A DNA stretch of 64,000 bases, from sequence record OV696614. One strand, 5' to 3'. This stretch comes from Escherichia phage Cyrano. Each line of letters opens with the position of its first letter. The first letter of the stretch is position 1. The notes under the pieces were generated by a model. The model did not search any database. It was not told the origin of the DNA and saw nothing but the letters and a program-made list of their open reading frames with translations. The position numbers were made by a program, and so were the translations under genes. This document shows, in pieces, positions 95 through 54,455 of the stretch.

Positions 95-111
95 AAAACA
101 AAGGAAAGCAC

Positions 112-1452
112 ATGACCGAACTTTGCCATACAGGACGCGGGCTGTCCGAAGAGTTTGATGAAGATTTCCAGAACAGACTGACGGCATATTTTTGTCGTGA
201 TCACGAGTTTCTTACTCGTGCGGGAGATCTGGTTGTGCCTAGCCAATTTGCCAATGCGGCCAATGCCATATTGGTTAATATGGTTTCGGGCTATTACCGT
301 ATGTACAAGAGCGCGCCCTCTTCATCTGCAATTCTGGATATGCTTAAGCGTGCGAAACGCGATAAGACTATCCGTGAGGAACTATTCGCCGATGTTGTTG
401 CTGCGTTTAAGCGCATTCTTGCAGAAAAATTGTCCGATACCTCGTACATGGTTGACCAGGTATCAACCTTCGCAAAAAGTGTAGCGTTTGATGATGCTCT
501 GATTAAGGCTGCTGAACTGAAAGAGAAAGGCGACTTTCAGGGGGCGATGGCAATCATGGCCAAGGTTCAGCAGATTGGATCGAACGAAGCGACCGGAATC
601 TATGACTACTACACCTCCGCAAGTGAGCGATTGAAAGCGCGTGAATATGAGGCTTCAGAGGAGTATGTGCCAAACAGCATTACAACTGGACTCCCTCTGC
701 TCGATAGGTTGCTGTACCAAAAAGGCTGGGCAAAGCGCGAAATGGTGCTCTTCATGGGGTTCGCTAAATCCGGTAAATCGACCGCAATGGGTGAGTTTTC
801 CATAAACGCAACGCTTGCTGGCTACAATGTTCTGTATCTCTCGCTGGAGGTTCACACCACCATTTTATCCGACCGTTTTGATGCAAGATTGTCGGAGACA
901 GAAATGTCCAAGCTGGTGGAACGGCGCGATGAGGTTCATCGTAAGTTGGCAGAGTTGGGAGCCACGAAGGGGATTGGTAGTTTGTGGGTGGTTGAGCGTC
1001 CGTCAGGAAGTATGTCACCGGCAGATCTGGACCGTATGCTTAACAGCATGAAAGCCAACGGCATGGTACCTGACATGGTTGTTGTCGACTACGCAGATTT
1101 GATGCGTGCCAGTTATGACCTTCGTGATGATCGCGCCAACATTCGTAGTATCTACACCGATTTACGTGCTCTTTATGACAAGCATAACGTTGCTGGGATC
1201 ACGGCATCGCAGACAAACCGTGAAGGTGGCGCGTCAGAAGTTGCCACAATGATGCACGCTGCCGACAACATCGAAAAAGTACGTATTGCTGACCTGGTAA
1301 TAACGATCAACAAAACCGAAGAAGAAGAAGCGAAAGGAGAGGCTCGTCTCTACTTTGCTGGTTCACGTAACCAGCAGGGAGGGATCAGCATTCGCGTTAA
1401 ACAAAACCTCGAACAAATGCGCTTCATTGAGCGAATCTTAGACGTTACCTAA
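112..1452 (+). CDS. DnaB-family replicative DNA helicase
   Basis: 446 aa; Walker A GFAKSGKST, Walker B-like VVVDYADLM, SQTNREG motif. Confidence 0.8.
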   Translation: MTELCHTGRGLSEEFDEDFQNRLTAYFCRDHEFLTRAGDLVVPSQFANAANAILVNMVSGYYRMYKSAPSSSAILDMLKRAKRDKTIREELFADVVAAFKRILAEKLSDTSYMVDQVSTFAKSVAFDDALIKAAELKEKGDFQGAMAIMAKVQQIGSNEATGIYDYYTSASERLKAREYEASEEYVPNSITTGLPLLDRLLYQKGWAKREMVLFMGFAKSGKSTAMGEFSINATLAGYNVLYLSLEVHTTILSDRFDARLSETEMSKLVERRDEVHRKLAELGATKGIGSLWVVERPSGSMSPADLDRMLNSMKANGMVPDMVVVDYADLMRASYDLRDDRANIRSIYTDLRALYDKHNVAGITASQTNREGGASEVATMMHAADNIEKVRIADLVITINKTEEEEAKGEARLYFAGSRNQQGGISIRVKQNLEQMRFIERILDVT

Positions 1453-1533
1453 AAAATAAGCGTGGAGAACACCTCCACGCTTGATTCATTGGTGAAACAA
1501 CTTTTCTTTTGCCAAACCACAAAAGAAAAACAC

Positions 1534-2715
1534 ATGAGCCTTTATGTTATATCAACATTTAGGTTGGTCACAATATTGCCTGTTAAAAGTGGAATTATCG
1601 TGAGCGAGCTGAAAGAGCTAATTACCGAATTAGATTTTGAACAATGGTTGGATACTGAAGGTATCGTTTATCGACGTGGAGGCGTGAGTACTCGCGGTCG
1701 TGAAGTGAATATCAAGGAGTGTCCGGTATGCGGCAGCTCCAACTGGAAGGTATATTTCAATCTGACCAGTGGCGTCGGTAAATGCTTCGCTGGTGATCAT
1801 CCCGAAGAGATTCAGTTCAATAAGCTGGTCTTCCTCAAGCACTACAGCGGCAAATCACGACGACAGTTCGAGGAATATGTGCAGAACGCCCTTCTTTCCC
1901 AGGGGTGGGCACCAAAGAAAGAAGAGCTAGTGCTTGCAAGCACAGTCGAGTTAGAGGGGCCAGTTGCACTCCCTCGTCATTACGAGCTTCCTATAGATGG
2001 CCGTCTTCCAGACTATCTGGTTGAACGAAACATATCGCCTGAAATGGCAAAATATTTTGACCTACGATACTGCGTCGAAGGCAAGCACGCCTATGTAGAT
2101 CCGTATACAGATCAGGTTAAAGGACAGATATTCGATATGCGAATACTGATACCGGTTTACGATCTGGATGGGGTAATGAAGACATTTCAGGGACGAGACA
2201 TTACCGGTACAGCAGAACGCCGCTACCTCTTTCCTATGCAGCTTCCAGCTTCAGGTAAGTTTCTCTACAACGGCCATAATGCAGTTGGCAAACAGACTGT
2301 AGTTGTCTGTGAGGGGGCGTTCGATGTTATGGGAGTTAAACGAGCTATTTTTGATGAAGAAACATTACGTGATTACGTGGAACCAATAGGAACGTTCGGG
2401 ATGCATCTATCTGGCAACACCACTCAGGATGCAGAAGATCAGTTGGGCGCGTTCCTGACGCTCAAGGCGCGTGGATTACGTAATGTGATCATGATGTGGG
2501 ATAGTGAAAAGCAAGCTATACGCAACACTATGGCCGCAGCCAAGCGACTGACCAGTATTGGTCTTAATGTCAAAGTAGCGTGTTTGGGCGAGGAAGGACT
2601 CGACCCAGGCGATGCAACGCCAGAACAAATTATCAAAGCCTATTATCGGGCAAAACCGTATACCAGACAGTTGGAGTTGCAAAGCAAGGTTTTAGGCATT
2701 AAGGCTCTATCGTAA
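1534..2715 (+). CDS. DNA primase (zinc ribbon plus TOPRIM-like)
   Basis: CPVCGSS zinc-ribbon motif, acidic VVVCEGAFD segment; start moved from track GTG 1462 to ATG 1534, which sits behind the conserved AAAAACACATG context and after a hairpin at 1460-1480. Confidence 0.65.
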   Translation: MSLYVISTFRLVTILPVKSGIIVSELKELITELDFEQWLDTEGIVYRRGGVSTRGREVNIKECPVCGSSNWKVYFNLTSGVGKCFAGDHPEEIQFNKLVFLKHYSGKSRRQFEEYVQNALLSQGWAPKKEELVLASTVELEGPVALPRHYELPIDGRLPDYLVERNISPEMAKYFDLRYCVEGKHAYVDPYTDQVKGQIFDMRILIPVYDLDGVMKTFQGRDITGTAERRYLFPMQLPASGKFLYNGHNAVGKQTVVVCEGAFDVMGVKRAIFDEETLRDYVEPIGTFGMHLSGNTTQDAEDQLGAFLTLKARGLRNVIMMWDSEKQAIRNTMAAAKRLTSIGLNVKVACLGEEGLDPGDATPEQIIKAYYRAKPYTRQLELQSKVLGIKALS

Positions 2716-2790
2716 CAAGTGCCGATAAAATAAGTAGATGATTACTTATCTTTCTGTAAGAATACTTTCATCTGTTAGCTAGGAGTTTGT

Positions 2791-3573
2791 ATGAAAGACG
2801 AAATTCAGAAATTAGCCTGCGACATCATTGATAAAACTGGTTTAGAAATCAGCGAGAGCAATCGGCTAGACATCATTGAAAAAGCCGTAAAAACAGCAAT
2901 GGATCATATCGCCACTCGTTTGGTCGAGATCCCGCTACCGGGGCTACCTTATCTGAAGGTTAAGTTACACGTATGGGGTGAACCTTCTTGTGCACGGCGT
3001 TCTGCATTAGTTGTTTTTATTAGCAAAGAAAACCCGATCAGTCTTAAAGTGCAGGTTGGGGCATGGATGGATGGCAAAGCGATCTACACAAATACCGTTT
3101 TTTGTGCGTCAAATGACAGTATTATTGAAGAGGCTATTCAAGAATCACTTCTAACTATGCATAGCTTAGTTTTGCTGGAAGACAAGCAAAACTACGAAGA
3201 GTACTTACGGTCGATAAAAGGTGAGAGAACATTGTCACTTAAAGCCGATTTCGTTACCCCGACAAACCTGTTGGAAGTCTTGCTTAATAAAGGGGCTAAT
3301 GATGCTGTAAACCTAATCAGGGAGAGCGAATATTCGACTCTTTGGGACATGTGCAAAAGCCAGTTGGATCTTGTGCATATCATTGTTGATGCGGGTAAGG
3401 CGTGTGATGGCGTAATGGCGGAATTTGCTGGGAAGGTGGTCAGGATTGCTAACGAATTACCGATGATAGAGCAAGAGGCTAAATCATACGCCACCAATCA
3501 TGTCACAGAGCTTCTTGCCCCCTATCGCTTAGAAAGCAATCAGCGCAAGATGATTAGCTGGGGAAGTTGGTAA
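2791..3573 (+). CDS. hypothetical protein
   Basis: 260-aa ORF with AGGAG RBS upstream; no recognised motifs. Confidence 0.45.
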   Translation: MKDEIQKLACDIIDKTGLEISESNRLDIIEKAVKTAMDHIATRLVEIPLPGLPYLKVKLHVWGEPSCARRSALVVFISKENPISLKVQVGAWMDGKAIYTNTVFCASNDSIIEEAIQESLLTMHSLVLLEDKQNYEEYLRSIKGERTLSLKADFVTPTNLLEVLLNKGANDAVNLIRESEYSTLWDMCKSQLDLVHIIVDAGKACDGVMAEFAGKVVRIANELPMIEQEAKSYATNHVTELLAPYRLESNQRKMISWGSW

Positions 3574-3628
3574 TCTCTCAGTGTGTCGTTTTTTACGCAA
3601 AGAATGATAGGTAAGTACAAGATTATTT

Positions 3629-4111
3629 GTGGCGGTGGTTGTGAAAGCTGATTTGTCAAAAATCCCCTCTATTTCAGGAAATAATGGTTATTCACTTCGT
3701 TGTGAGGAAGTAAAGATAAACGGTGAGTCGGCATATTGCAGCTACTCCGTTTGCCAGCACACCATTCTTGCCTTCAAAGAAAACCGTCTTCCTCGAACTT
3801 CATTCCAGTCGTGCGCAACCGCTATCAAAGCAGGCAAATGCAAGGCGTTAAAAATGATGGTTGAAGAGATTCGTAAAGGAGAATCTCTGTATTTCGAAGA
3901 TATGACCGCACTCATTAAGGAGGTTGAAGAACGGAATAAACAAGCCAGAACTATAAAACGAAAACGTGACAGTGTAACGATTAATAGCATGGTTAAGAAG
4001 AGCGCCACATCACAAACAGCGATCACTGACGTGTATGCGGCGTTGCTTGAAGAAACAACAAAAGAAACACATGAGCAAATCGATCAACATATGGAGGCAA
4101 AACAACAATGA
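3629..4111 (+). CDS. hypothetical protein (start uncertain)
   Basis: 160-aa ORF from a GTG; basic C-terminal half; true start may be an internal ATG. Confidence 0.3.
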   Translation: MAVVVKADLSKIPSISGNNGYSLRCEEVKINGESAYCSYSVCQHTILAFKENRLPRTSFQSCATAIKAGKCKALKMMVEEIRKGESLYFEDMTALIKEVEERNKQARTIKRKRDSVTINSMVKKSATSQTAITDVYAALLEETTKETHEQIDQHMEAKQQ

Positions 4112-13284: not shown

Positions 13285-13340
13285 TAATGATATATTTATA
13301 TAAGAAGTTGAACGCTCATTAGAAAACAAAGGAAAAACGC

Positions 13341-14576
13341 ATGACTACTACTGCACTGCAAAATGAAAAAAATCCTTCTGATTACCTTGTTTGCAAGTGG
13401 TGCGGAAAATCATTTCACTATTTTAAGTCCCATGTAGCCAATGGTAATTGCGAGGGCATTCCTGAGTCAGTAAAAGATGCCGATCCTGACACCGTACTGA
13501 AAATGTACACAACACAGTTTCCAGATGAGCCAACGCTATCGAAAAAGGCACTTGATGCAATTCAAGCTAAACGTGCCGAGCAAAAAAGCGAAATGGCCAA
13601 ATCATCTGGCGTGACCAGTAGCCCAGGCTACACAGGCACAGTTGAGTACAAGACAGATCTGGTCGCAGCTCACGAACTGCTAAATGTAACGGTGAAAGAA
13701 CTCGGAACAAAACGTGGGACGCCGCTCATGGTTAGCGTCAACGTCAATACGCCGTTTCCAGAGTTCGTTCCAGAAGTGAAGAAGGGCTACGTATATGGCG
13801 ACTTCGAACTGATCAAAGACATTTTCATGATGCTTGAACTTGGCATACCTGGCTATTTGTGGGGTCATGCAGGAACAGGCAAATCGTCATTGCCTACACA
13901 ACTATGTGCTTTGCTCAATCGTCCGTTGATCCGTGCCCAACATACAGCATCAATGGAAGAGGCACATGTTACGGGGCAAATTCTGGCGCGTGATGGCTCT
14001 ACGTATTTCGAGCCTGGCTTGCTTGCGCTCGCAATGAAGCATGGCTGGGTTTACCTCGCGGATGAATACGACTTTGCGTTTCCACAGATTCTTGGCGTGT
14101 ATCAGCCAGTGCTGGAAGGTGAAGCGTTGGTCATCAAAGAGGCGACTCCAGAATGGCGTCGCATTACTCCGCATGAACGGTTTGCTTTCATTGGCACTGG
14201 CAACACGAACGGATCTGGTGATGAAACCGGCTTGTACCAGGGTACAAACATCCAGAACGCCGCGAACTTTTCGCGTTTTGGCATCGTTTCGAATGTGAAA
14301 TACATGAGCAAAGAGGCAGAGATCAACATGTTGATAAATGCCGGTATCGTGGATGAATACGCAGAAAAGATGGTTAAGTTTGCCGGTATCGTTCGCGATG
14401 GATACGAAGAACACCTTATCAGTCAGCCAATTGGCCCTCGTGAACTTTTGTTGTCGGCCAAGATTGGAATGATGCGAGGCGACTTTGTGACAGGTATTGA
14501 GCGTTCTTTCATTAACAAACTCCCTTCAGCTTCTGCACAAGCGGCTCGTGAAGTTGTTCAAAAAATATTTGGTTGA
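13341..14576 (+). CDS. AAA+ ATPase, MoxR/CbbQ/CobS-like
   Basis: 411 aa; Walker A GHAGTGKSS, Walker B VYLADEYDFA; N-terminal Cys cluster; AAAGGAAAAACGCATG start context. Confidence 0.75.
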   Translation: MTTTALQNEKNPSDYLVCKWCGKSFHYFKSHVANGNCEGIPESVKDADPDTVLKMYTTQFPDEPTLSKKALDAIQAKRAEQKSEMAKSSGVTSSPGYTGTVEYKTDLVAAHELLNVTVKELGTKRGTPLMVSVNVNTPFPEFVPEVKKGYVYGDFELIKDIFMMLELGIPGYLWGHAGTGKSSLPTQLCALLNRPLIRAQHTASMEEAHVTGQILARDGSTYFEPGLLALAMKHGWVYLADEYDFAFPQILGVYQPVLEGEALVIKEATPEWRRITPHERFAFIGTGNTNGSGDETGLYQGTNIQNAANFSRFGIVSNVKYMSKEAEINMLINAGIVDEYAEKMVKFAGIVRDGYEEHLISQPIGPRELLLSAKIGMMRGDFVTGIERSFINKLPSASAQAAREVVQKIFG

Positions 14577-14756
14577 TCGTGCGTAAAGGATGTTTCGGCT
14601 CTCTTATCGCTGCTTCTGAAACTGGTAAGGCTTGTCTGGTATGTCCAGACAAGCCCGATTGTCACCAATCAGCAAAAGAAGTTGCGATTTCGATGTATGG
14701 GAAGTTCGTAGGCTTCCCCAATGACAAAATCAAAAAAACCATAAAGGTAAAAACAC

Positions 14757-17700
14757 ATGAAAGCACTGATGGTTCGAACTGACTTCTCACTTGGGGAGTC
14801 GGCTCTAAAAGCAGAAAACGCGGTGAAGATTGCCAGAGAAGCTGGCTACACCGCTGTAATTTCAGCAGATAGCATGAATATTGCGAGTGTTATTCCACTA
14901 CAACGTGCCGCTGGTGACGACATGGCGGTTATTTGTGGTGTGAAACTAAATATCGTTGATGATCCCACATACGAGCACCGGGCTAAACTTGCTAAAGAAT
15001 CTATGAGATGTATGGAATCATTAGAGCGGGGACGTAACTACTCGTTTACCGCTCTAATTAAAAATGAGCAAGGATATCGCGACATCTGCGAACTAATGAC
15101 GGCGGCCAACACACGAGAACAGTTCTACTTTGTACCGCGTCTCTCGCTCGAACAGTTGGTTTCTACATATGCCAAAGGCAACATCATCCTGCTTACTTCC
15201 GACATCGGTAGCGTGTTCCAACGCAACGATTTTGCAAAAATCATAAGCACACTGATTACAGCGGGTGGAAAAGACAACTTCTATAGTGTGGTTTATCCGC
15301 ACCCTACCCCATTCTACGACCAGATTAACGTCCGGGCGATGAAAGTCGCCAGCGCATTGAAAATAGAGCCAGTGGCGTTCTATCCCGCTTATTACGAATC
15401 GATCGACGATGCAGACATTAAAGACATTGCGCACATGGTTACGAACAACATCAAAATCGACCAGCCGCATCGTCTGCGTATCCCCCACCAGCGAGATAAC
15501 GCCATCAATGGTCGTCGCCATCTCCTTGAGGCGCTTAAAGCCTTCTCCGTTCGCATGGATGTGCCGGTAACAGCTGCAATGGCCTCAACAACGCAGGACT
15601 CCATTATCGATGCCTGCACATGGCGCTGGCATGAATTGCCACCAGCACTGCCCAAGATGGCAGACGACGAACCTGCAACGCTGATGAAACTGGCTGTTGC
15701 AGGGCTGCGTAAACGTCTTACCACAAAAGAGTTTGGATACACACCACCTGCTTCTGAGAACAGGGTTTATGTTGAGCGGCTAAAGTACGAAATGGACACG
15801 CTGACTCGCCTGGGATTCTGTGGTTACTTCCTGATGGTACGCGATCTGATGAATCACAGCCGTGAAACTGGCATTCCTGTCGGGCCTGGTCGTGGTTCCT
15901 CTGCCGGTTCTCTGGTGGCGTGGTGCATAGGCATAACCAACGTCGACCCAATCCGTCACGGTCTTCTGTTTGAGCGTTTCATCAACCCTGAGCGTCTCGA
16001 CTTGCCGGATGCGGACTTGGACTTCAGCCAGGCACGTCGCCATGAGGTGATCGAGTATCTGAATGAACGCTACGGCGAAGATTACGTTGCAGGCATTCCG
16101 AACTTCACCTATCTGGGCGCGGCATCTGCACTACGTGACACCGCTCGTATTTATGGTGTGGAGTCCGCAGATATGGCGGTATCAAAAGAACTGAAGAACG
16201 TCGAGGATGATAGCCTTCCATTGGAAGAGCTGCGCGAACAACTGGCAAGTCTCGACAAATACGCAACAAAATATCCTGATGCATTCAATGCAGCCTGCAA
16301 GTTACAAAGCCTTATGCGTGGCTTTGGTAGACATGCGGCAGGGATGATCGTAGCAGGTGTTCCTCTGACAGAACGTACACCGGTTGAGCGCCGTGGTGAC
16401 GCGCGTTGTATCGCATTTGACAAGCGTTACTGCGAGGCTATGGGCCTAATTAAGCTGGACGTGCTTGGCCTGGCAACTCTCGATTTGCTCGATAGTGCAA
16501 AACGCTACATCAAAGAGAGTACCGGGGAAGACATCAATCTCGACGCTATCCCACTGGACGATCGCAAGGTTCTGGATGGGTTCGCTGCAGGGTACACGCA
16601 GGGCGTATTCCAGCTGGAGTCCGGCCCCATGCGTAAGTTGCTTAAAGATCTGGGCGGTGGCATCGAGCCAATGAGCTTCAAGACCGTTGTCGCCACGACC
16701 GCACTCTTCCGACCAGGCCCGATCCAATCCGGCATGTTGGACGACTATGTCTCCGTGGCCAAAGGCTTCATGGCTCCACATTCAATTCATCCGCGTCTTG
16801 AGGAAGTCACCCGGGAGACTAATGGTGTTTTGCTCTATCAGGAACAAATCATGCAAAGTTCCCGAGTACTTGCCGGGTTCTCTATGGCCGAAGCAGACGC
16901 TCTGCGTTCCGCTATCGGTAAAAAGAACATGGATAAGATGAAAGCGATCGGCAGCGATTTTGTAGAACGAGCACAAGCAGGCTGGGTGACACTGTCACTC
17001 AAAAATGGAGGTACTGTAGAGGTTCACAAACACGCAAAACTGGATTGCTCAGACGGTAAGCGTAGAAGCTACAGCGAGGCTATTAGTGACGGCATAGACT
17101 ACGTGGAGATCGTCTCTGAACAAGAAGGTCTCAGTAAGGAAAAAGCCCAAGAAATATGGGACGCCTTTGAGAAGTTCGGTGGATATGCCTTCAACAAATC
17201 ACACAGTGTTGCTTATTCTTTAATCAGTTATCAGTCTATGTGGCTAAAGACGCACTACCCTGCTGAGTTCTTCGCAGCTGCGCTCACCATTCTGGGCGAG
17301 GATAAGCATCAGGGGCTGGTGAAGGATGCGCTGACCTATGGCATTCGCGTATTGCCACCAGACGTTAATGTGTCATCTAACCGAATTGAGATCCGCACAC
17401 TCGAAGACGGCAGTCAGGCACTGTATGCGCCATTCTCTGCTGTGAAAGGCTGTTCTGAAAATGGTTGTCAGGCAATTATGCGTGCGCGTGAGAAAGTTGG
17501 TGGCAAATTCGAGTCAGTGGCACAATTCGATGAAGCGGTCGAGAAGCGTGCATGTAACAGTCGTGTACGCGAGTCGCTTCATAAAGTAGGGGCTTTTGCG
17601 TCAATTGAGCCAGGCAGTCTGCCAGCAACTGATCCTGAACGACTGCGCGACCAGGCTGAGCTGATGGGCAATCTCATCATTGACGCTGTTAAAGCATCAC

Positions 17701-20645: not shown

Positions 20646-20762
20646 TTTTTGATAGATAATAAGTAAGTACTGATCTATCATTTAACAGCTCGAAAGAGCC
20701 ACGAATGAACGAAAGCCCAACGCGCATAGCGCCATCGGCCAAATCACAACAAGGAGAAACAC

Positions 20763-21791
20763 ATGTCTAAGACATTACTTGATTTGCTTAACAAAACTCG
20801 TGAAGACATTGCCGCCAAACGTGGCAACAACGTTGATCTGACTCGCTTAAAAGACGGCGTCAACTATATCCGCATCTTCCCGAATAAAGACGACCCAAAC
20901 GGTAAGTTCTTCCAGACTTTCGGTATGCACTACGTTAAGTATCAGAACGAGGAAGGTAAAGAAGCAACCAACGCTTATATTTGTGAGCAACATACTCACG
21001 GTCGCGCTTGTCAGCTATGCGAAATGGTGATGGAAGGTCGCGCTCGTCACAAGGGTAACAAAGCAATGGAAGAACGCATCGGTCAAATGCGTGCCACTCC
21101 TCGCTACCTGGTCAACGGCATTCTTTCTGCTCGTGAGGATTTCGCAGATGCTGAGAAATGCCAGTTAATCGAGCTGCCGTCTACTGTATTCGATGATATC
21201 TGCAAAGCAATCACCGAAGACATCGCTGATGATATCGGCAATCCACTGAGCAAAGAGGAAGGCTACGCATTCCTGATTAAACGTACTGGCTCTGGTCGCG
21301 ATACCAAATATGACGTCTCGCCTAAGCGTAAAGTCTACAAAGGCGATATCGAAGATAAATTCTGGAACACCCAGCATGATCTGATCGCATACGCAAATCA
21401 GGCTGATGAAACTCGTCTTCTGTCGACAGTTCGCACTATGGGTCGTCTGATTGGCATCGCTGCACCAACTGCCGCAGCATCTGCACCAGCAATTTCCTCA
21501 ACCGCGAAAACATCGGCTGCGGCACTACCTGGATTTGGCTCTGTCACTGGTCATACAGAAGGAGCGACGGCTGTAGCAACCGCGCACACACCGGCTTCTG
21601 AACCAACCAGTCTGGTTGATGAAGAAATCCTCCGTGCCGTTGAAACTGAATTTAAACCAGAGGCAAGTTCCGCTGCCGTTGCCGTATCAGTCAAAGAGTC
21701 TGAAGCAGTCGCAGCGACATCTGTAGCAACCGCATCTGCGACGGAAGATGAAGGTCTGGATGACCTACTGAGAGAGCTGGACTCTCTGTAA
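20763..21791 (+). CDS. single-stranded DNA-binding protein, T4 gp32-like
   Basis: 342 aa; IRIFPNKDDP resembles gp32 N-terminal block; zinc motif CEQHTHGRACQLC; Ala/Ser-rich acidic C-terminal tail. Confidence 0.7.
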   Translation: MSKTLLDLLNKTREDIAAKRGNNVDLTRLKDGVNYIRIFPNKDDPNGKFFQTFGMHYVKYQNEEGKEATNAYICEQHTHGRACQLCEMVMEGRARHKGNKAMEERIGQMRATPRYLVNGILSAREDFADAEKCQLIELPSTVFDDICKAITEDIADDIGNPLSKEEGYAFLIKRTGSGRDTKYDVSPKRKVYKGDIEDKFWNTQHDLIAYANQADETRLLSTVRTMGRLIGIAAPTAAASAPAISSTAKTSAAALPGFGSVTGHTEGATAVATAHTPASEPTSLVDEEILRAVETEFKPEASSAAVAVSVKESEAVAATSVATASATEDEGLDDLLRELDSL

Positions 21792-25434: not shown

Positions 25435-25497
25435 GTATGTTGAAAATGTATAAGCACTTACTTATCATTAGCACACAATAACCACATAGGAAAACAC

Positions 25498-25698
25498 ATG
25501 TTCAAACTCTATCTTATGGCAGTAGTTACAGGTCTATCTGTAGTTTTCATCTACTGTTTGCTGGTTCCGTCGCTGATCTCTGCTAAAAGCGACATTGCCG
25601 TAATGCTTGGAATCATCGTTGCTTTTGGTGCTCCTGTGATCGGGTTTATTGCAGGTCGTAAGTTTCTAAAGTCACTCATCAATTCGAAGGAGAAGTAA
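25498..25698 (+). CDS. small membrane protein (two predicted TM helices)
   Basis: 66 aa, hydrophobic; coupled to downstream SPFH gene. Confidence 0.5.
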   Translation: MFKLYLMAVVTGLSVVFIYCLLVPSLISAKSDIAVMLGIIVAFGAPVIGFIAGRKFLKSLINSKEK

Positions 25699-27049: not shown

Positions 27050-27104
27050 TCGCCTATTCATAACTAACAAAATAAGTAAACACTAACCACAAAAGGAAAA
27101 ACAC

Positions 27105-27380
27105 ATGAGAGTTTTAGTTCGAATCGTTACCAGCACTGTCTATGACGTGTTTCCGGTTTTTATGGTCAAAGCCGATGGCCTTAACGACGAAGAAACTGAC
27201 GCGCTGATCCAGCGTATTCTCGTTGAATATACAGGTCATGACGCTGATTCAGTGATGGTTGATGATGATGGTGTTTGTTGGCATAACGGCAACTGTTGGT
27301 ACGTAGAAGAGACTCAACAAATCAGTGATGAAGATGCCGAACATCTTGAGCGTATTTTAAGCATCAGCACTTTTGAGTGA
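27105..27380 (+). CDS. hypothetical acidic protein
   Basis: 91 aa; AAAAGGAAAAACACATG start context. Confidence 0.5.
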   Translation: MRVLVRIVTSTVYDVFPVFMVKADGLNDEETDALIQRILVEYTGHDADSVMVDDDGVCWHNGNCWYVEETQQISDEDAEHLERILSISTFE

Positions 27381-31076: not shown

Positions 31077-31330
31077 CCCTCCAGATCGTATATTGGCGTA
31101 GATAGAATCTACGCCCCCTCAAAATAGCTCTCATAGCGTTCTACAGTGATCCAGTCTTATTTTTAGTCATACAGACAAGCAAAGTTGCGCCACGATAAAT
31201 AGGTATATACTTACTTATAAATTTTGTATATTAAGGCGCTCGTTTCATTCCTAACATACCGTTATGCATAGTTGTTTACCTCCTCATTGCTCTTAGAATT
31301 TGTATCAAAATAACCACAAAGGAAAAACAC

Positions 31331-32416
31331 ATGACTTTGCCATACGGCGTCATTTCTGACTGCCACTACCACAAATGGGATGCGTTCTCCACGACGAACG
31401 CTGAGGGGCTTAACTCCAGACTTGAAATACAGTTGGAAGCAACGAAAGAAGCAGCCATCGCCATGAAGAAGGCCGGTTGTAAGTACATGTTGGTTGCCGG
31501 TGATACATTTCACGTCCGAGGAACTGTGTCCCCTTCTGTTTTGCATTACGTAACTGAAACGTACAAGTGGATTATCAACGAGCTTGATCTGACAGTAGTA
31601 ATGCTGGCCGGTAATCACGATCTTGAAACCAACGATTCAGTATATAGCGCCAACGCAGCAGCATCGCTGAGTTCTATCGGCGTGGTAATCGTATGTGGCA
31701 AGCGCCCACACTCAATAAAAATTGGTGATGTGACTGTCCACCTGATTAGCTGGCGTAACAATCATGCGGAGCTTATCAGCGATCTGAAAGCATTACGTAA
31801 GAGCGTAGAAGGTGATAATCATGACGTTGTTATCCATACATCCATTAACAAAGCCATTCCAACAATGCCTGACGTCGGTATCGATGCGCAGGAGTTAAAG
31901 GATATCGGCTTTCGTCTCGTGCTTAGTGGGCATTACCACAACCACAAAGAGGTCATTCCTGGAGTTATCAGTGTCGGTGCACTGACTCATCAAAATTGGG
32001 GAGATGTTGGATCTCTGGCTGGCTACATGATCGTAAACCCGGACGGCAGTTTCAGTCACTACGAAACCAGTGCGCCTAAATTCATTAACCTGGAAGATGA
32101 TGTTGCTGATGACCAAATTCGCGGCAACTACGTGCGTTTCCGCGCCGTAATTGAGAACGATGAAGAAGGCATTAAGTACCAGAACATCCTCAAAACAATG
32201 GGTGCAAAAGGTGTCGTGTGCAACTTCATCCGTAAGTCATCAATGATGGAAGGGACAGCCAGCACAACTGAAACCAGCAAAATCGATAGCCTGGGAGAGT
32301 CGGTATCTGCTTATTGCAAGATTGTCCACGATACTGACGGCGGATTTGATCTGAGCAAATTGGATATTTTGTGTCAGGAAATCCTCACCGAAGCGGAGAG
32401 TTCGGAGGCTGTGTGA
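31331..32416 (+). CDS. SbcD/Mre11-family nuclease
   Basis: 361 aa; phosphoesterase motifs GVISDCHYH, LVAGDTFH, LAGNHD, SGHYHNH. Confidence 0.8.
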   Translation: MTLPYGVISDCHYHKWDAFSTTNAEGLNSRLEIQLEATKEAAIAMKKAGCKYMLVAGDTFHVRGTVSPSVLHYVTETYKWIINELDLTVVMLAGNHDLETNDSVYSANAAASLSSIGVVIVCGKRPHSIKIGDVTVHLISWRNNHAELISDLKALRKSVEGDNHDVVIHTSINKAIPTMPDVGIDAQELKDIGFRLVLSGHYHNHKEVIPGVISVGALTHQNWGDVGSLAGYMIVNPDGSFSHYETSAPKFINLEDDVADDQIRGNYVRFRAVIENDEEGIKYQNILKTMGAKGVVCNFIRKSSMMEGTASTTETSKIDSLGESVSAYCKIVHDTDGGFDLSKLDILCQEILTEAESSEAV

Positions 32417-38340: not shown

Positions 38341-38369
38341 ACCCACCAAAAAAGAAAAAGGAAAAACAC

Positions 38370-39512
38370 ATGTCATATTCAACGTTCCGTTTGGGTGCTA
38401 ATGATGCAACCAAAGAGCCTATGTTCCTCGGACAATCTGTCAACGTGGCACGTTACGATCAGCAAAAATACCGTGATTTTGAAAAGTTGATTGAACGTCA
38501 ATTGTCTTTCTTCTGGCGGCCGGAAGAAGTTGATATTTCGAGCGATCGTATCGACTTCAACACGAAGCTGCGGGACCACGAACGTCACATTTTTCTGAGC
38601 AATCTCCGTTATCAAACGTTACTCGATTCAGTTCAGGGACGTAGCCCAAATGCAACGCTGCTGCCGCTTATCTCTATTCCTGAACTGGAAACGTGGGTTG
38701 AAACATGGTCTTTCTCTGAGACTATCCATAGCCGCAGCTACACCCACATTATTCGTGGCATGGTGGACGATCCGAGCATTGTTTTTGACGGTATTGTTAC
38801 GGATGAAGAAATCATCAACCGAGCGATCAGTATCTCTGCTGAATATGACAGGCTTTATGGGATGACCTGCGAGCGCCAGTCGTTAGGTGAGAAAGAGTTT
38901 GAACGTCTGTACGTAAATGAATATGGCTGGGAGCCATACCCTTTGCATCGTCAGCTTTTCCGCACGTTGGTGTCCATTAATGCGCTTGAGGCGATCCGTT
39001 TCTATGTAAGTTTTGCATGTACGTTTGCCTTTGGCGAACGGAAGTTGCTTGAGGGTAACACCAAAATTATGCGCTTTATTGCCCGTGATGAAGCTCTGCA
39101 TTGCGAAGGAACTGAACGCATGATCCGCTTCATGCGTACCGGTCGCGAAGGTTTATTGTGGAAAGAGATTGCTGCTGATGAAGAAAACGTCATTTACGAC
39201 ACCATGAAATCAGTCGCCGAACAAGAAATGAACTGGGCAGACTATCTCTTCAAAGACGGTTCGATGATTGGTTTAAACGCGGATATTCTGAAGACCTATG
39301 TAAAATACCGAACCAATCTGGCTATGAATCGTCTTGGCCTGAAGGCTTTATTTCCAGAGGTTACCACCGATCCGCTGGTCTGGATGAACAAGTGGTTGTT
39401 AACCGACACACTGCAAATTGCACCACAAGAGGCAGAGCAAAGCACATATCTGGTAGGTCAGATCGATTCTACCGTGGATAAGGCTTCTCTAAGCCAGTTT
39501 GCTGACCTGTAA
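38370..39512 (+). CDS. nrdB: Ribonucleoside-diphosphate reductase beta subunit
   Basis: 380 aa; blocks [51 protein letters not shown] match my recollection of E. coli NrdB. Confidence 0.85.
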
Positions 39513-48546: not shown

Positions 48547-48561
48547 TAAAACAACTTGTTT
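48547..48561. promoter_or_regulatory. Palindromic motif AAACAA-N-TTGTTT
   Basis: aaaacaacttgtttt about 25 nt upstream of the 48586 start. Confidence 0.4.
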
Positions 48562-48585
48562 TGACAAATAACAAAAGGAAAACAC

Positions 48586-49011
48586 ATGTTAGGTTTCTTC
48601 AAAAAGAAAACTCGTAAAGCAGTTATCGAAGTCAAAAAAATGGAGAACCGTGATGCGGTTGAGGCCACCGTGTGGGGCGCGTACATGATCTCCTATGCCG
48701 ACGGCACATGTGACGCAAAAGAAATTGCCATTCTTGAGAAGACAATTGCAGCTCTGCCTGCGTTTTCTCCGTTTGCTGGTGAAATTGCCCAAATGAGCGC
48801 CAATATCCGTGCTCGTTACGAAGCGTCCCCTCGTTCTGCTAATGCACAGGCTATTCGTGAGCTGTCTGATATTGCGGGTACTCCAGAGGCGGTCGATGTT
48901 CTGTGTCTGTGCCTTGATATTGCCGACCAGGACGGCATTGATGAACCAGAAGAGCAGGCGCTGAAAAAGATCGCCCAGGCGCTTCAGTTGTCACTGGATG
49001 CTTATCTCTAA
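48586..49011 (+). CDS. TerB-like domain protein (tentative)
   Basis: 141 aa; helical acidic pattern ADGTCDAKEIAILEK..EQALKKIA reminiscent of TerB; tentative. Confidence 0.4.
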   Translation: MLGFFKKKTRKAVIEVKKMENRDAVEATVWGAYMISYADGTCDAKEIAILEKTIAALPAFSPFAGEIAQMSANIRARYEASPRSANAQAIRELSDIAGTPEAVDVLCLCLDIADQDGIDEPEEQALKKIAQALQLSLDAYL

Positions 49012-49276: not shown

Positions 49277-49292
49277 AAAACAACTTGTTTAA
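49277..49292. promoter_or_regulatory. Palindromic motif AAACAA-N-TTGTTT
   Basis: aaaacaacttgtttaa upstream of the 49309 start. Confidence 0.4.
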
Positions 49293-49308
49293 GCATTAGG
49301 AAAAATAC

Positions 49309-49878
49309 ATGTGCAAGAAATGCAAAGCGATAGCTGATGAACAAAACGCCTTATTCGAAGAAATGGATGCTAATGAGCTGGTCAAAATGTTAGCCATTCT
49401 TCGAGGAATAGAAGACGTTTCCATATTTGAGAGAGTGGTTACAGCACTTAATTTTGAGTCCACCTTTGAAGAGCCAACTCAGGTTGTAGCTTTAGCACAT
49501 CATTTCGGTGTTCATTATCTTGCTGAAAAAGAGCGCGCTGATAAGTTGCAGGCGACTTTGGATATGGTGAGCGAGACTCAACGAACTGATGACACTAACA
49601 AGAGTGAGGCGATTATTGCCAGCAAAGATCGTGAAATTGCTGGGCTTAAATCCTCTCTAACGATGTTGATGTCTGCGTTCAATCTTATGTCTTCTCAGGC
49701 GGGTTATAAAATGCCATCACTAAACAGCGATGATCCGATGGCCGTTCGTCAGCTTTTGGGAGCAATGGCCGACCAACTCGACGACACAAAGAGTCGCCTT
49801 GAAGACATGATGCGTGAGTTAAGCCATCGACATAACCTCGCAACACAACCACACAAAGTCTTTCAAAGCTCTAATTGA
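49309..49878 (+). CDS. hypothetical protein
   Basis: 189 aa; N-terminal CKKC. Confidence 0.45.
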   Translation: MCKKCKAIADEQNALFEEMDANELVKMLAILRGIEDVSIFERVVTALNFESTFEEPTQVVALAHHFGVHYLAEKERADKLQATLDMVSETQRTDDTNKSEAIIASKDREIAGLKSSLTMLMSAFNLMSSQAGYKMPSLNSDDPMAVRQLLGAMADQLDDTKSRLEDMMRELSHRHNLATQPHKVFQSSN

Positions 49879-52620: not shown

Positions 52621-52681
52621 TAGGTAAATGCTTACTTAATTTGTGTAAGAATGTAGTAACTAAACGATAAGAGAAAAACAC

Positions 52682-53386
52682 ATGAGCAACCTCCAGTTAG
52701 AGCATTTTAACGTCACAGGACATTCCGATTTTCCTTTCAAGTTTACATTGAAAGGTTATGCAGAGGATGCGGTAGGCCAGATCATTATTGATAAAGGCAT
52801 CGTTAAGTTTGAGGGGAATTTTGATGAATCCGCGAAAACATTCATAGACTTCGTTGCCAAACGTTGGAGCGAGCAATGGAAAGACCTGGAAAAGCGCGCT
52901 AGTGAGTTTGATCGGTTCATGGATGCAATGGATACAGCAAAAGAGGCTATTGCTGCCGGGACTCCGTTAGATCTGGAGTCACTTTTCAACGGCGAAGTGG
53001 CCTCTGCGATGTTCGCTACCATGTTCGCGGGTGAGTTCGTCCGCAGCGGTGCCAAAAACTACCTTGAGCTGGATTACAACGTCCCTGCAATTGGCGATTT
53101 CGTCGTTACCATCCAACGCAAAGAAGGTAAGACGCCAGGTGAACGCGTCGCAGAACTTGAGGCTGTTGTGGATCAGCGTAACGGAGAGTGTGACCGTTTG
53201 ATCAACGAGCTTCATGCACTTCGGGAAGAAAGAATATGCGAGGGTAGTAATACACGTAATGCAGCGGATATCTACTTCCAGTTAGTTGAGGAATGCCAGA
53301 TTCCACCAGGTGGCTCTCTTGTCGATTACGTCGGACATTTAATGGCGGAAGTTAACTCCAGCCATAAAGATGGTGAGGTGCGCTGA
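52682..53386 (+). CDS. hypothetical protein
   Basis: 234 aa; GAGAAAAACACATG start context. Confidence 0.45.
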   Translation: MSNLQLEHFNVTGHSDFPFKFTLKGYAEDAVGQIIIDKGIVKFEGNFDESAKTFIDFVAKRWSEQWKDLEKRASEFDRFMDAMDTAKEAIAAGTPLDLESLFNGEVASAMFATMFAGEFVRSGAKNYLELDYNVPAIGDFVVTIQRKEGKTPGERVAELEAVVDQRNGECDRLINELHALREERICEGSNTRNAADIYFQLVEECQIPPGGSLVDYVGHLMAEVNSSHKDGEVR

Positions 53387-53766
53387 TGTTTGGCATTGAC
53401 GCACAGCGTATAGCCGCTTTTGCAAAAAGCCCTCTTGATAATCCCTTGTCTCGTAGTGAGCAAATGGAGCTGGCAAGGCTTTTTCTTCACATTCAAAAAC
53501 AGGCAGACATTTTCAATAACATGCCTAATCAACCTATTCTGGATGGTCACATCCAGATGGTCATTAACAGTCATGAGAAAGGCTGGGCTGCAATCGTCCC
53601 CTGCACAATTACATACAGGTTGGCTAAAGAGGTTCAAGAGTTTCGAAAAGTCAGTGTCGAATCAGAGTCTACCAAAGCCGCAATAAACACTCTTATTCGC
53701 ATGGGGTTCACATGGACCGGTGGAGCCTACTGGCAAGCACCTCACCCCATTTTATCCGGCAATTAG
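53386..53766 (+). CDS. hypothetical protein
   Basis: 126 aa; ATGA-coupled start. Confidence 0.4.
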   Translation: MFGIDAQRIAAFAKSPLDNPLSRSEQMELARLFLHIQKQADIFNNMPNQPILDGHIQMVINSHEKGWAAIVPCTITYRLAKEVQEFRKVSVESESTKAAINTLIRMGFTWTGGAYWQAPHPILSGN

Positions 53767-53903
53767 ACGCTACAAATCCTTCGGCATGAATAAATAAAGG
53801 CCATAAGTTGTGGCCTTAAATAAATTGTTTTCTACCTTTTCTTATTTGTGAAAATAACCAGCACTTGGTAGTGCTTATGTAACAGCAAAGAAGAGAAAAA
53901 CAC

Positions 53904-54455
53904 ATGAGTAACAAAATCGAAAATCCCGTAGTTCTCATTCACAAGCGCGAGAACCACGACTCCTATGCGGTGGCGATCACCAATGGGAGTCACGATTTTT
54001 ACGATGGCCTGCTAATGGCCTCAGTGTCGCCTGATAAGGCAGACAACTCTTTTGCCGTCTTCGCTATGGTTGGTTACTACATGGCTGCCGAAATTGAGAA
54101 GTTGCGGGCGCAGAGAGACGCATTAGCGGCGGAGAATGTGGCATTGCGATCTAAGGCTGCGGAACTGGCACATGAAGCGTCAAAAATTTACTCGGCATAT
54201 AACGCCACTATCACAGAGCCTGACGGGGATTTTATGGACATGCAGACATTGCATGAAATGCAGTGCATAGAAACTCCAGCCACCGATGCTTTTCTGGCTG
54301 AAGTACGTGCGCAGGGCGTGGATATGGCTCGTAACGCGATGATTGATTTTGTTGATGGTGAAGTTGGGCCAAACAAGAACGTTCCGGGGCTGATTAGAGG
54401 CGCAGAGATATGCGTAAGTATTGCTGAACAGCTTCGTAAAGGAGTCATCCAGTGA
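53904..54455 (+). CDS. hypothetical protein (lambdoid early-region-like)
   Basis: 183 aa; AGAGAAAAACACATG context; DAFLAEVRAQGVDMA resembles ead/Ea22-type proteins. Confidence 0.45.
   Translation: MSNKIENPVVLIHKRENHDSYAVAITNGSHDFYDGLLMASVSPDKADNSFAVFAMVGYYMAAEIEKLRAQRDALAAENVALRSKAAELAHEASKIYSAYNATITEPDGDFMDMQTLHEMQCIETPATDAFLAEVRAQGVDMARNAMIDFVDGEVGPNKNVPGLIRGAEICVSIAEQLRKGVIQ

What the first reader, a model, noticed from the sequence alone, without database searches (positions are those of the whole stretch)
99..53906. Conserved translation-initiation context AAAGGAAAAACACATG on at least 12 genes
The same SD-spacer-start string, with small variations, precedes genes at 112, 1534, 13341, 14757, 20763, 25498, 27105, 31331, 38370, 48586, 52682 and 53904. 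Conservation extends beyond the Shine-Dalgarno into the spacer (AAACAC), which is more than ribosome binding needs. That pattern is typical of sites recognised by a translational repressor (a T4 RegA-like mechanism) or of a duplicated promoter-leader cassette.
Basis: partly seen in the sequence, partly recalled or inferred. Interest (0 to 1): 0.45.

Follow-up and report, generated by a model that had tools for sequence, protein, structure and literature searches.

The report
Shared start-codon leader on phage-plasmid early genes
Thirteen unrelated replication and nucleotide-metabolism genes of an SSU5-type E. coli phage-plasmid start with nearly the same 13-22 bases ending in AAACAC-ATG, and selection preserves this sequence more than ribosome binding alone requires, so it is a real start-associated element whose reader (the ribosome alone or a dedicated regulator) is unknown.

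Summary
AAAGGAAAAACACATG (3 or fewer mismatches) occurs 11 times against 1 expected. Every copy is on the + strand and sits on the ATG of a real gene.

The window is an SSU5-like E. coli phage-plasmid. The 13 genes form a discrete class. All follow intergenic gaps. Their Shine-Dalgarno sequences are weak to moderate. Their leaders are A/C-only and poorly structured.

Among orthologues from about 230 related contigs, the spacer (-7..-1) of motif genes is about three times less variable than the spacer of non-motif genes, and less variable than the SD block. The recurrence is specific to this lineage. It is absent from E. coli ribosomal-protein operons, from phage T5, from 735 gene starts of unrelated phages, and from syntenic Acinetobacter and Pseudomonas relatives. 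It is present, on a partly different gene set, in a divergent Klebsiella relative.

A promoter-leader cassette is excluded, because similarity ends near -20. No RegA homologue and no antisense RNA were found.

Best reading: a cis-acting, ACA-type, structure-free translation-initiation cassette. A dedicated translational regulator remains a serious rival. The closest analogue is the start-associated sequences of Cluster K mycobacteriophages.

The parts
99..114 (+). Motif variant CAAAGGAAAGCAC-ATG at the DnaB-like helicase gene (112-1452)
   Evidence: The same AAAGCAC variant is found at the dnaB orthologues of SSU5 and a Klebsiella plasmid. Palindrome palA lies at 80-92.
1521..1536 (+). AAAAGAAAAACAC-ATG at the primase gene (1534-2715). 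The SD is almost absent (-0.9 kcal/mol) but the spacer is perfect.
   Evidence: The SD-poor form is kept in SSU5 and in the Klebsiella relative.
13328..13343 (+). AAAGGAAAAACGC-ATG at the CobS-like AAA ATPase gene (13341-14576)
   Evidence: Two orthologue clades have different leaders upstream of the SD but the same AAGGAAAAAC(A/G)C-ATG.
14744..14759 (+). AAGGTAAAAACAC-ATG at the Pol III alpha gene (14757-18263). It lies inside the small upstream ORF 14579-14782.
   Evidence: nearly invariant in 79 loci. SSU5_051 overlaps the pol start.
20750..20765 (+). CAAGGAGAAACAC-ATG at the gp32-like single-strand-binding protein gene (20763-21791)
   Evidence: (Pfam gp32, E=1.7e-66).
25485..25500 (+). 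CATAGGAAAACAC-ATG at a 66-aa membrane protein gene (25498-25698)
   Evidence: Invariant in 17 orthologue haplotypes. A sigma70-like TTGAAA-17-TATCAT promoter with palindrome palB in its spacer lies upstream.
27092..27107 (+). Perfect AAAGGAAAAACAC-ATG at a 91-aa protein of unknown function (27105-27380)
31318..31333 (+). Perfect motif at the SbcD-like nuclease gene (31331-32416)
   Evidence: AACCACAAAGGAAAA(N)ACAC-ATG is conserved across 80 loci, and a conserved TAnAAT -10-like hexamer ends about 31 nt upstream of the ATG.
38357..38372 (+). Perfect motif at the NrdB gene (38370-39512)
   Evidence: The orthologue clades differ in SD (AAAGGA vs AAAGGG) but keep AAACAC-ATG. palA lies at 38326-38338.
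48573..48588 (+). AAAAGGAAAACAC-ATG at the TerB-like gene (48586-49011)
   Evidence: palA lies at 48549-48561.
49296..49311 (+). TTAGGAAAAATAC-ATG at a 189-aa gene of unknown function (49309-49878).
   Evidence: Most orthologues have AAAAACAC or AAAACAC here. palA lies at 49278-49290.
52669..52684 (+). AAGAGAAAAACAC-ATG at a 234-aa gene of unknown function (52682-53386). There is no GGA in the SD.
   Evidence: spacer diversity 0.024 over 24 haplotypes.
53891..53906 (+). AAGAGAAAAACAC-ATG at a 183-aa gene of unknown function (53904-54455)
   Evidence: Relatives in which this gene is coupled to an upstream gene lack the motif.

Best explanation
The string is a start-associated translation-initiation cassette of SSU5-type enterobacterial phage-plasmids. 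On the mRNA it consists of a weak to moderate SD (AAGGA, sometimes only AAGAG or AAAAG). The SD is embedded in an A/C-only, structure-free leader that carries ACA trinucleotides on both sides (..ACA-AAGGA-AAA-ACA-C-AUG).

It is used by genes that must recruit a 30S subunit de novo: first cistrons, or genes after a gap, in the non-structural (replication and nucleotide-metabolism) half of the genome. I propose that it works mainly in cis. The single-stranded, G/U-poor leader and its ACA motifs enhance 30S binding, probably through protein S1, independently of SD strength. This gives about 13 unrelated early genes the same initiation behaviour.

- Shown: the motif, its discreteness, its register with the ATG, its accessibility, its purifying selection and its lineage specificity.
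For: 1. The motif is a discrete class of 13 of 65 genes, always on the ATG.
2. All 13 follow gaps of 55 nt or more: 13 of 39 gapped genes against 0 of 20 coupled genes, Fisher p=0.0025. SD energy averages -4.7 kcal/mol against -7.0 for coupled genes. The cost of opening -20..+12 is 6.6 kcal/mol against 9.9 and 10.3 (p=0.007 and 0.003). G+T in -20..-1 is 3.7 against 10.6.
3. ACA count in -25..+1 is 2.8 against 0.5 in the other genes (p=3e-7) and 0.4 in E. coli genes. ACA motifs next to the SD are experimentally shown translation enhancers in Salmonella, where single-base changes cost 23-62% of expression (PMC3879156). That gives base-level selection without a dedicated factor.
4. The spacer is under purifying selection only in motif genes: diversity 0.125 against 0.333 (p=0.003), with third codon positions at about 0.2 in both classes.
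5. Three genes keep a perfect spacer with almost no SD (1534, 52682, 53904). In primase this holds across three lineages. So the spacer contributes positively to initiation.
6. The exact 16-mer is a working start context in at least 89 unrelated viral contigs of 26-67% GC.
7. No RegA homologue and no complementary RNA elsewhere in the window or SSU5.
Against: - ACA enhancers were reported to be position-independent (PMC3879156). Here AAACAC abuts the ATG in strict register in 13 of 13 sites, and in 13 of 13 sites of a Klebsiella relative.
- If host ribosomes simply preferred this sequence, highly expressed E. coli genes and lytic coliphages should use it. They do not: 0 of 65 r-protein-region genes, and 0 copies in 50 kb of T5.
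- New instances on other genes in a divergent lineage (RecA-like, RNase H-like) appear as the complete motif.
- That lineage has a modal A-run of 4 (9 of 13 sites, none with 5) where the window has 5 (9 of 13). This hints at copying or at a lineage-specific reader.
- No expression data exist.
Confidence: 0.45

Rival explanations
1. Translational operator of a regulon. A dedicated trans-acting factor binds AAACAC-AUG plus the A tract on about 13 early mRNAs and coordinately represses (or activates) their translation. The factor could be a phage-encoded protein not homologous to RegA, the gp32-like SSB acting on unstructured leaders, or a small RNA. One purpose could be to keep lytic replication genes silent while the element lives as a plasmid.
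For: - Strict register with the AUG and near-identity of 13 non-homologous sites.
- The spacer is more conserved than the SD.
- Lineage-specific recurrence, absent from host genes, T5 and other phages, and absent from syntenic Acinetobacter and Pseudomonas relatives.
- Gene-set turnover with the full motif, and a different modal A-run in a divergent Klebsiella lineage.
- Restriction to the non-structural half: 10 of 79 genes against 1 of 29 in SSU5.
- Resemblance to RegA operators, which contain the AUG and a 5' poly(A) tract and are unstructured (PMC3014915).
- A gp32-family protein is encoded, and its own gene carries the motif. T4 gp32 is an autogenous translational repressor (PMC3014915).
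Against: - No RegA homologue by tblastn or phmmer in the window, the first 100 kb of the 103-kb SSU5 genome, or the PhiR41_1 segment.
- No complementary sequence of 8 nt or more elsewhere.
- Pfam found no RNA-binding domain in the unknown motif-bearing proteins.
- Within the close SSU5 clade each site keeps its own variant, with no genome-wide concerted change.
- No candidate factor has been identified.
Confidence: 0.32
2. Copy-and-paste or recombination element. The 16-22 nt string spreads between gene starts by short-homology recombination or gene conversion. It marks module junctions and has no specific function beyond being an adequate RBS.
For: - The motif sits at gene boundaries after gaps.
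- A partly different set of genes carries it in a divergent lineage.
- That lineage has a uniform A4 form against A5 here.
- The phage encodes RecA-like, SbcCD and exonuclease functions.
Against: - Orthologous sites are under site-specific purifying selection, three-fold below neighbouring intergenic positions.
- Clades with completely different leaders upstream retain the same SD-spacer (13341, 38370, 48586).
- Each site keeps its own variant within the close clade, so there is no ongoing homogenisation.
Confidence: 0.08
3. DNA-level site. This would be an asymmetric operator for a DNA-binding protein, like the stoperators of Cluster A mycobacteriophages, which silence prophage genes by blocking transcription.
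For: The motif is asymmetric, has a single orientation relative to transcription, occurs in many copies across the non-structural region of a temperate element, and lies between genes.
Against: - The site always contains a correctly spaced SD and the start codon itself, with zero offset in 13 of 13 sites.
- There are no copies away from starts.
- Two separate palindrome families upstream (palA, palB) are better candidates for DNA operators.
Confidence: 0.05

Closest known systems
[quoted passage not shown] 2011, PMC3203893)
   Same: - A 13-bp asymmetric repeat present in 11-19 copies per genome.
- One orientation, a few bases upstream of start codons, nearly always ATG.
- Contains an SD core plus conserved positions that cannot pair with 16S rRNA.
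- Restricted to the non-structural half of a temperate phage, on genes of unrelated families, with gene-set turnover between subclusters.
- About half the copies are preceded by inverted repeats with a variable spacer. Here 11 of 13 sites are preceded by palA or palB.
- Function still untested (PMC12699233).
   Different: - The sequence is unrelated: GGGATAGGAGCCC there, AAAGGAAAAACAC here.
- The host is a high-GC Gram-positive, not an enterobacterium.
- SAS lie 3-7 bp from the start, whereas this motif abuts the ATG with zero offset.
- This is an analogy of form. There is no evidence of common origin or of a common reader.
T4 RegA translational operators (PMC3014915)
   Same: The sites overlap or abut the AUG of many early replication and nucleotide-metabolism mRNAs, contain a 5' poly(A) tract and are unstructured.
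   Different: No RegA homologue is encoded. RegA sites are A+U-rich and poorly conserved among targets. This motif is A/C-rich, U-free and nearly identical among targets.
ACA / C-A-rich translational enhancers of enterobacterial mRNAs (yifK, dppA, gltI; Yang et al. 2014, PMC3879156)
   Same: ACA trinucleotides flank the SD in a G/U-poor leader. The host family is the same. Base-specific effects on initiation could explain the constraint.
   Different: Those enhancers act at variable positions, usually upstream of the SD, and are targets of the sRNA GcvB. Here the conserved block is the SD-AUG spacer in fixed register, and pairing with GcvB is no better than with shuffled GcvB.
T4 gp32 autogenous translational control
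   Same: A gp32-family SSB is encoded at 20763-21791. Its own leader and 12 others are unusually unstructured, which is the property gp32 exploits on its mRNA.
   Different: The T4 operator is a pseudoknot plus an A/U-rich tract on a single mRNA. No pseudoknot was looked for or seen here. SSBs are not known to read a specific hexamer.

Membership tests
T4 RegA translational repression system | A RegA protein (Pfam Translat_reg, PDB 1REG) encoded by the phage | tested here: not met
   tblastn and phmmer of T4 RegA (sequence confirmed against 1REG) against the window, 100 kb of SSU5 and 31 kb of PhiR41_1 gave a best E-value of 1 or worse. The last 3 kb of SSU5 and about 44 kb of this element outside the window were not searched.
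T4 RegA translational repression system | Operators overlap or abut the AUG of many early mRNAs, carry a 5' poly(A) tract and are unstructured | tested here: met
   13 sites on ATGs of early-type genes. A-run of 3-5 in 12 of 13 sites. Low opening energy. The defining features are taken from PMC3014915.
T4 RegA translational repression system | A+U-rich operator of the AAAAUUGUUAUGUAA type | tested here: not met
   The logo is A/C-only at -7..-1, with T at 0.08 or less at every position.
T4 RegA translational repression system | The protein competes with 30S subunits for the site | not testable with these tools
   Needs toeprinting or filter binding.
Cluster K mycobacteriophage SAS/ESAS | Asymmetric repeat of about 13 bp, 11-19 copies, single orientation, immediately upstream of (mostly ATG) start codons | tested here: met
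   13 copies, all + strand, all on ATG.
Cluster K mycobacteriophage SAS/ESAS | Consensus GGGATAGGAGCCC | tested here: not met
   The consensus here is AAAGGAAAAACAC. This is an analogue, not a member.
Cluster K mycobacteriophage SAS/ESAS | Restricted to the non-structural half of the genome | tested here: met
   In SSU5, 10 of 79 non-structural starts against 1 of 29 structural or lysis starts are within 4 mismatches.
Cluster K mycobacteriophage SAS/ESAS | About half the copies are preceded by imperfect inverted repeats with a variable spacer (ESAS) | tested here: inconclusive
   11 of 13 sites have palA (AAACAAnTTGTTT) or palB (ATAAGTAA-N0-6-TTACTTAT) 20-120 nt upstream. These palindromes also precede non-motif genes.
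ACA / C-A-rich translational enhancer | ACA trinucleotides clustered at the ribosome-binding site | tested here: met
   2.8 ACA per -25..+1 against 0.5 in other genes and 0.4 in E. coli genes.
ACA / C-A-rich translational enhancer | Stimulates translation initiation; base substitutions lower expression | not testable with these tools
   Purifying selection on the spacer is consistent with this but is indirect.
ACA / C-A-rich translational enhancer | Silenced by pairing with the GcvB R1 region | tested here: inconclusive
   AAACACA is complementary to UGUGUUU in GcvB (sequence). However, 23.5% of shuffled R1 sequences pair as well with the 13 leaders.
CsrA-binding site | Invariant GGA core | tested here: not met
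   Three members lack GGA (AAAAGA at 1534; AAGAGA at 52682 and 53904). GGA is less conserved than the spacer.
Duplicated promoter-leader cassette | Similarity extending over promoter length (40 nt or more) upstream of the start | tested here: not met
   Pairwise identity falls to random (0.25-0.28) upstream of -26. The motif is also present inside upstream coding sequence.
Stoperator-type DNA operator (Cluster A mycobacteriophages) | Asymmetric site oriented with transcription, bound by the immunity repressor, position not tied to the start codon | tested here: inconclusive
   Orientation and copy number fit. But the register with the ATG is exact and an SD is always included, which argues for an RNA-level role. 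Binding is not testable here.

The most novel reading that the evidence does not exclude
SSU5-type phage-plasmids of Enterobacteriaceae may possess a previously undescribed post-transcriptional regulon. In this reading a factor unrelated to RegA (a phage protein, the gp32-like SSB, or a small RNA) reads the AUG-anchored AAACAC element on about 13 early mRNAs. It would coordinately gate translation of the lytic replication machinery, for example keeping it off in the plasmid state. This would be the enterobacterial counterpart of the unexplained mycobacteriophage SAS.
Probability: 0.3. Interest if true: 0.7.

Novelty: new variant of a known kind. Interest (0 to 1): 0.5.

Why it matters
Conserved start-associated sequences have been known in Cluster K mycobacteriophages since 2011, and no function has been tested (PMC3203893, PMC12699233). 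An analogous element in an E. coli / Salmonella / Klebsiella phage-plasmid would put the question into the most tractable genetic system available. Reporter fusions, toeprints and pull-downs are routine there.

SSU5-like phage-plasmids are very common in clinical enterobacteria. At least 994 PLSDB plasmids hold 80% or more of the CobS-like protein. How they keep a full lytic replication module silent while living as plasmids is unknown.

If the element works in cis only, it is a compact, portable leader that drives SD-independent initiation. That would be of interest for expression design and for improving start-codon calling in these genomes. For example, RefSeq places the SSU5 primase start 68 nt downstream of the motif ATG.

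Tried and rejected
1. **RegA homologue.** None found.
2. **Phage-encoded antisense or anti-motif RNA.** There is no reverse-complement match with 3 or fewer mismatches, and no GTGTTTTTC, CATGTGTT or similar string elsewhere in the window or SSU5.
3. **Host sRNA GcvB.** A 7-nt complementarity exists, but duplex energies are no better than with shuffled R1. The first attempt with full-length GcvB gave unrealistic long-loop duplexes and was discarded.
4. **Promoter-leader cassette.** Rejected by block-wise identity. The sigma70 consensus scan of 1-20000 found fewer promoter-like sites than shuffles (14 against 31.5) and none on the + strand next to motif genes.
5. **Generic RBS.** Rejected by controls in E. 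coli, T5 and unrelated phages.
6. **CsrA.** Rejected because three sites lack GGA.
7. **Genome-wide concerted evolution of the A-run.** It is seen only in the comparison with one divergent Klebsiella plasmid. It is not seen within the close clade, where each site keeps its own form. It is left as a hint only.
8. **First guess at the palB pattern** (ATAAGTAANNNTTACTTAT). The spacing was wrong and the matches were chance. It was replaced by a variable-spacer scan.
9. **Pfam on the unknown motif-bearing proteins.** No RNA-binding domain found.
10. **Heavy homology and structure searches** for a candidate factor were not run. No single candidate justified them.
11. **One preprint on phage-plasmid heteroresistance** could not be opened.

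Full report
**What the window is.** The window is 95.7% identical to Escherichia phage PhiR41_1 and 81% identical to Salmonella phage SSU5. It is therefore the non-structural part of an SSU5-type phage-plasmid. It carries, almost all on the + strand:
- a DnaB-like helicase, primase, ligase, CobT/CobS-like ATPases, Pol III alpha, a gp32-like SSB, an exonuclease and a RecA-like protein;
- a RepA gene flanked by iterons;
- SbcCD, NrdAB, ThyA, DHFR and methyltransferases.

- AAAGGAAAAACACATG with 3 or fewer mismatches has 11 matches against 0.99 expected. All are on the + strand.
Site 49309 is a thirteenth member.
- AAACACATG is the most over-represented 9-mer of the window: 11 on +, 0 on -.
- PHROG profiles align from residue 1 of most of these proteins, so the start codons are right.
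- The Hamming distance of the 65 gene starts to AAAGGAAAAACAC is bimodal: 11 genes at 0-3, the bulk at 7-11.
- No ATG of the window that is not a gene start comes within 3 mismatches.
- The shared sequence is short and anchored on the AUG. Pairwise identity among the 13 sites is 0.91 at -7..-1, 0.54 at -16..-8, 0.37 at -25..-17, and random beyond that and downstream.

**Which genes carry it, and what their leaders look like.**
- All 13 genes follow intergenic gaps of 55 nt or more. That is 13 of 39 gapped genes against 0 of 20 translationally coupled genes (Fisher p=0.0025).
- Their SD pairing is weak to moderate: mean -4.7 kcal/mol, against -7.0 for coupled genes. Three genes have hardly any SD (AAAAGA, AAGAGA).
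- The leader is A/C-only, with 3.7 G+T in -20..-1 against 10.6 in other genes.
- The leader is cheaper to open: 6.6 kcal/mol against about 10.
- ACA trinucleotides are five-fold enriched, 2.8 against 0.5 per leader.
- The products are replication and nucleotide-metabolism proteins plus five small or unknown proteins.
- In the annotated SSU5 record (first 100 kb of 103 kb), the motif is confined to the non-structural part: 10 of 79 starts against 1 of 29.

**The spacer is under selection.** I collected about 230 related loci from IMG/VR with three protein queries. I anchored the orthologous starts by their coding sequence.
- Nucleotide diversity among distinct haplotypes at -7..-1 is 0.125 for 11 motif genes and 0.333 for 15 gapped non-motif genes (Mann-Whitney p=0.003).
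- Third codon positions are about 0.2 in both classes.
- Within motif genes the spacer is less diverse than -30..-17 (Wilcoxon p=0.002) and than the SD block (p=0.03). In non-motif genes the spacer evolves like the rest of the intergenic DNA (p=0.33).
- Clades whose leaders have diverged completely upstream of the SD keep the same SD-spacer. This is seen at CobS-like 13341, nrdB 38370 and terB-like 48586.
- In the family-wide logo, -6..-1 carry 1.1-1.8 bits each, more than the SD positions.

These counts use haplotypes, not independent events. However, the same loci serve as the control for the non-motif genes.

**It is not a generic ribosome-binding site.**
- The exact 16-mer occurs in at least 99 unrelated viral contigs (GC 26-67%). 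In 89 of them it opens an ORF of 50 aa or more, so it is a workable start context anywhere. But it occurs only once per contig.
- In 735 automatically called gene starts of those contigs, AAACAC at -6..-1 occurs 0 times and CAC at -3..-1 in 0.5%.
- In 65 annotated E. coli genes, including the ribosomal-protein, EF-Tu and EF-G operons, none has CAC at -3..-1. Fifty kb of coliphage T5 have no AAACACATG.

**How far it reaches in the family.**
- Syntenic but distant relatives lack it. These are Pseudomonas phage nickie (gp32-like about 30% identical) and an Acinetobacter baumannii phage-plasmid (CobS-like 41% identical).
- A divergent Klebsiella phage-plasmid (CobS-like 60% identical) has 13 copies in 41 kb. 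These lie on a partly different set of genes, including the RecA-like and RNase H-like genes, which lack the motif in the window. One copy lies inside the 3' end of an overlapping upstream gene.
- There the modal form has four A's before CAC (9 of 13 sites, none with five). The window has five A's (9 of 13).
- Within the close clade each site keeps its own variant. I therefore treat the lineage shift as a hint only, not as proof of concerted evolution.

**Interpretations tested.**
- *Promoter-leader cassette.* Excluded. Similarity ends near -20, and the motif occurs without any room for a promoter: inside ORF 14579-14782 before pol, after the dnaB terminator hairpin before primase, and inside coding sequence in the Klebsiella plasmid. 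Some motif genes do have their own sigma70-like promoter 25-40 nt upstream. Examples are TTGAAA-17-TATCAT before 25498 and a conserved TAnAAT before sbcD. These promoters are not part of the repeat.
- *RegA-like system.* The T4 RegA sequence (verified against PDB 1REG) has no homologue in the window, SSU5 or the PhiR41_1 segment. The site is A/C-rich rather than A/U-rich. It nevertheless shares the operator logic described for RegA: the AUG, a 5' poly(A) tract and no structure (PMC3014915).
- *Antisense or sRNA control.* No complementary sequence exists elsewhere. Host GcvB has a 7-nt match, but it pairs no better than shuffled controls.
- *CsrA.* Unlikely, because GGA is missing in three sites.
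- *DNA-level operator.* Unlikely, because the ATG and a spaced SD are always part of the site.

**Best explanation and its rival.** The data support a start-associated translation-initiation cassette read on the mRNA.

I favour a cis-acting mechanism (confidence 0.45). The structure-free A/C leader with ACA motifs on both sides of a modest SD promotes 30S recruitment for genes that cannot rely on translational coupling. ACA motifs at ribosome-binding sites are experimentally established enhancers in Salmonella, with base-specific effects of 23-62% per substitution (PMC3879156). That can account for purifying selection on individual spacer bases. It can also account for members with almost no SD.

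Several things are not explained by this reading:
- the strict register with the AUG;
- the near-identity of 13 sites;
- the absence of the motif from highly expressed host genes and from other coliphages;
- the appearance of complete copies on new genes in a sister lineage.

These features favour a dedicated reader, that is, a translational operator of a regulon (confidence 0.32). No candidate factor was identified. The only lead is the gp32-family SSB encoded at 20763-21791 (Pfam E=1.7e-66). Its T4 namesake represses its own unstructured leader.

**Comparison with what is known.** The closest known phenomenon is the start-associated sequences of Cluster K mycobacteriophages. These are a 13-bp asymmetric repeat in 11-19 copies, just upstream of ATG starts. 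They occur only in the non-structural half, on unrelated gene families, and are often preceded by inverted repeats with a variable spacer. They were proposed to act in translation initiation through an unknown host or phage factor (PMC3203893). They were still untested in 2025 (PMC12699233).

The present element matches that description point by point. It differs in sequence, in host, and in its zero offset from the ATG. I found no description of it for SSU5-like elements in the searchable literature. I therefore rate it a new variant of a known kind, of moderate interest. It is a real, selected, lineage-specific element in a very common and genetically tractable group of phage-plasmids, but its mechanism is unresolved.

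Noticed in passing
window 80-92, 11105-11117, 26595-26607, 38326-38338, 48549-48561, 49278-49290, 53818-53830, 61114-61126, 61165-61177, 62605-62617, 63801-63813: Palindrome family palA, (AG)AAAACAAnTTGTTT(A). There are 24 strand-matches against 3.2 expected. It lies 15-45 nt upstream of + strand gene starts (6 of the 13 motif genes and several others). It is conserved in orthologues and in a divergent Klebsiella plasmid. It is a candidate operator or promoter element for a DNA-binding regulator.
   Followed up: partly
window ~2738, 3608, 6251-6272, 10606, 13266, 20655, 25450, 31198, 35883-35902, 40598-40615, 45435-45456, 47649, 52623: Second palindrome family, palB, with arms (G/A)ATA(A/G)GTAA and TTAC(T/C)TATC separated by a variable 0-6 nt. 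It lies 10-150 nt upstream of + strand genes. At 25498 it sits in the spacer of a TTGAAA-17-TATCAT promoter. The Acinetobacter relative has an analogous but different palindrome, TAAGCGCTTA. It is a candidate repressor operator and resembles the ESAS repeats in form.
   Followed up: partly
window 28199-28415 (-), 28551-28836, 29777-29850, 30135-30231, around ORF 28633-29688 (-): Twelve copies of the iteron CTATAGTGGAT (0.68 expected), four of them in tandem with a 21-nt period. They flank the RepA-like gene, so this is the plasmid replication origin.
   Followed up: partly
window 18542-18960 (-): A complete cspA 5'-UTR thermoregulator (Rfam RF01766, 187.6 bits) with a 71-aa cold-shock protein gene at 18782-18570 (Pfam CSD). 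It is absent from PhiR41_1 at this position and similar to csp genes of other coliphages, so it is a moron.
   Followed up: partly
window 23065-25404 (+): The RecA-like gene is interrupted by an intein (Intein_splicing plus a LAGLIDADG homing endonuclease domain, residues about 73-486) inserted after the P-loop GPPSAGK. SSU5 has the intein-less 359-aa form.
   Followed up: partly
window 57738-61029: Divergent apbC/mrp-like (57738-58838, -) and full-length metG (methionyl-tRNA synthetase; native start 58996, N-terminus MTQVAKKIL) genes are carried by the element. The same block is present in at least 97 plasmids (covering 80% or more of the query) of about 107-124 kb, mainly from Escherichia. 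These genes keep their own start context and do not carry the motif.
   Followed up: partly
window 57274-57295, before 57311-57700: A perfect inverted repeat ATACTGTAT-gtgt-ATACAGTAT (LexA-box-like CTGT-N8-ACAG) lies 15 nt upstream of an S24 peptidase (UmuD/LexA-like) gene. This is probably an SOS-controlled gene.
   Followed up: no
window 7021-7268: A cluster of three tRNA genes (Asn-GTT, Thr-TGT, Ser-TGA). SSU5 has only tRNA-Asn annotated at the corresponding place.
   Followed up: no
L165 (Pseudomonas phage nickie, NC_042091.1 40001-90000): This distant syntenic relative lacks the AAACAC-ATG motif. However, several gapped genes share another leader, (T)CAAACAG..GAG, just upstream of or overlapping the SD (starts 3817, 7618, 9981, 12156, 17461, 23429, 31592, 43841). 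It may be a lineage-specific counterpart.
   Followed up: no
L359 (A. baumannii plasmid p5760_2) 18092-18757: The Acinetobacter relative encodes a sigma-70 family sigma factor directly after the CobS-like gene. In the window, only a 67-aa ORF (14579-14782) overlapping the pol start is found at that place.
   Followed up: no
SSU5 NC_018843.1 35837 vs 35905: RefSeq annotates the SSU5 primase start at 35905. The motif ATG at 35837 corresponds to the start used in PhiR41_1 and in the window (1534). The motif could help to correct start calls in this phage group.
   Followed up: partly
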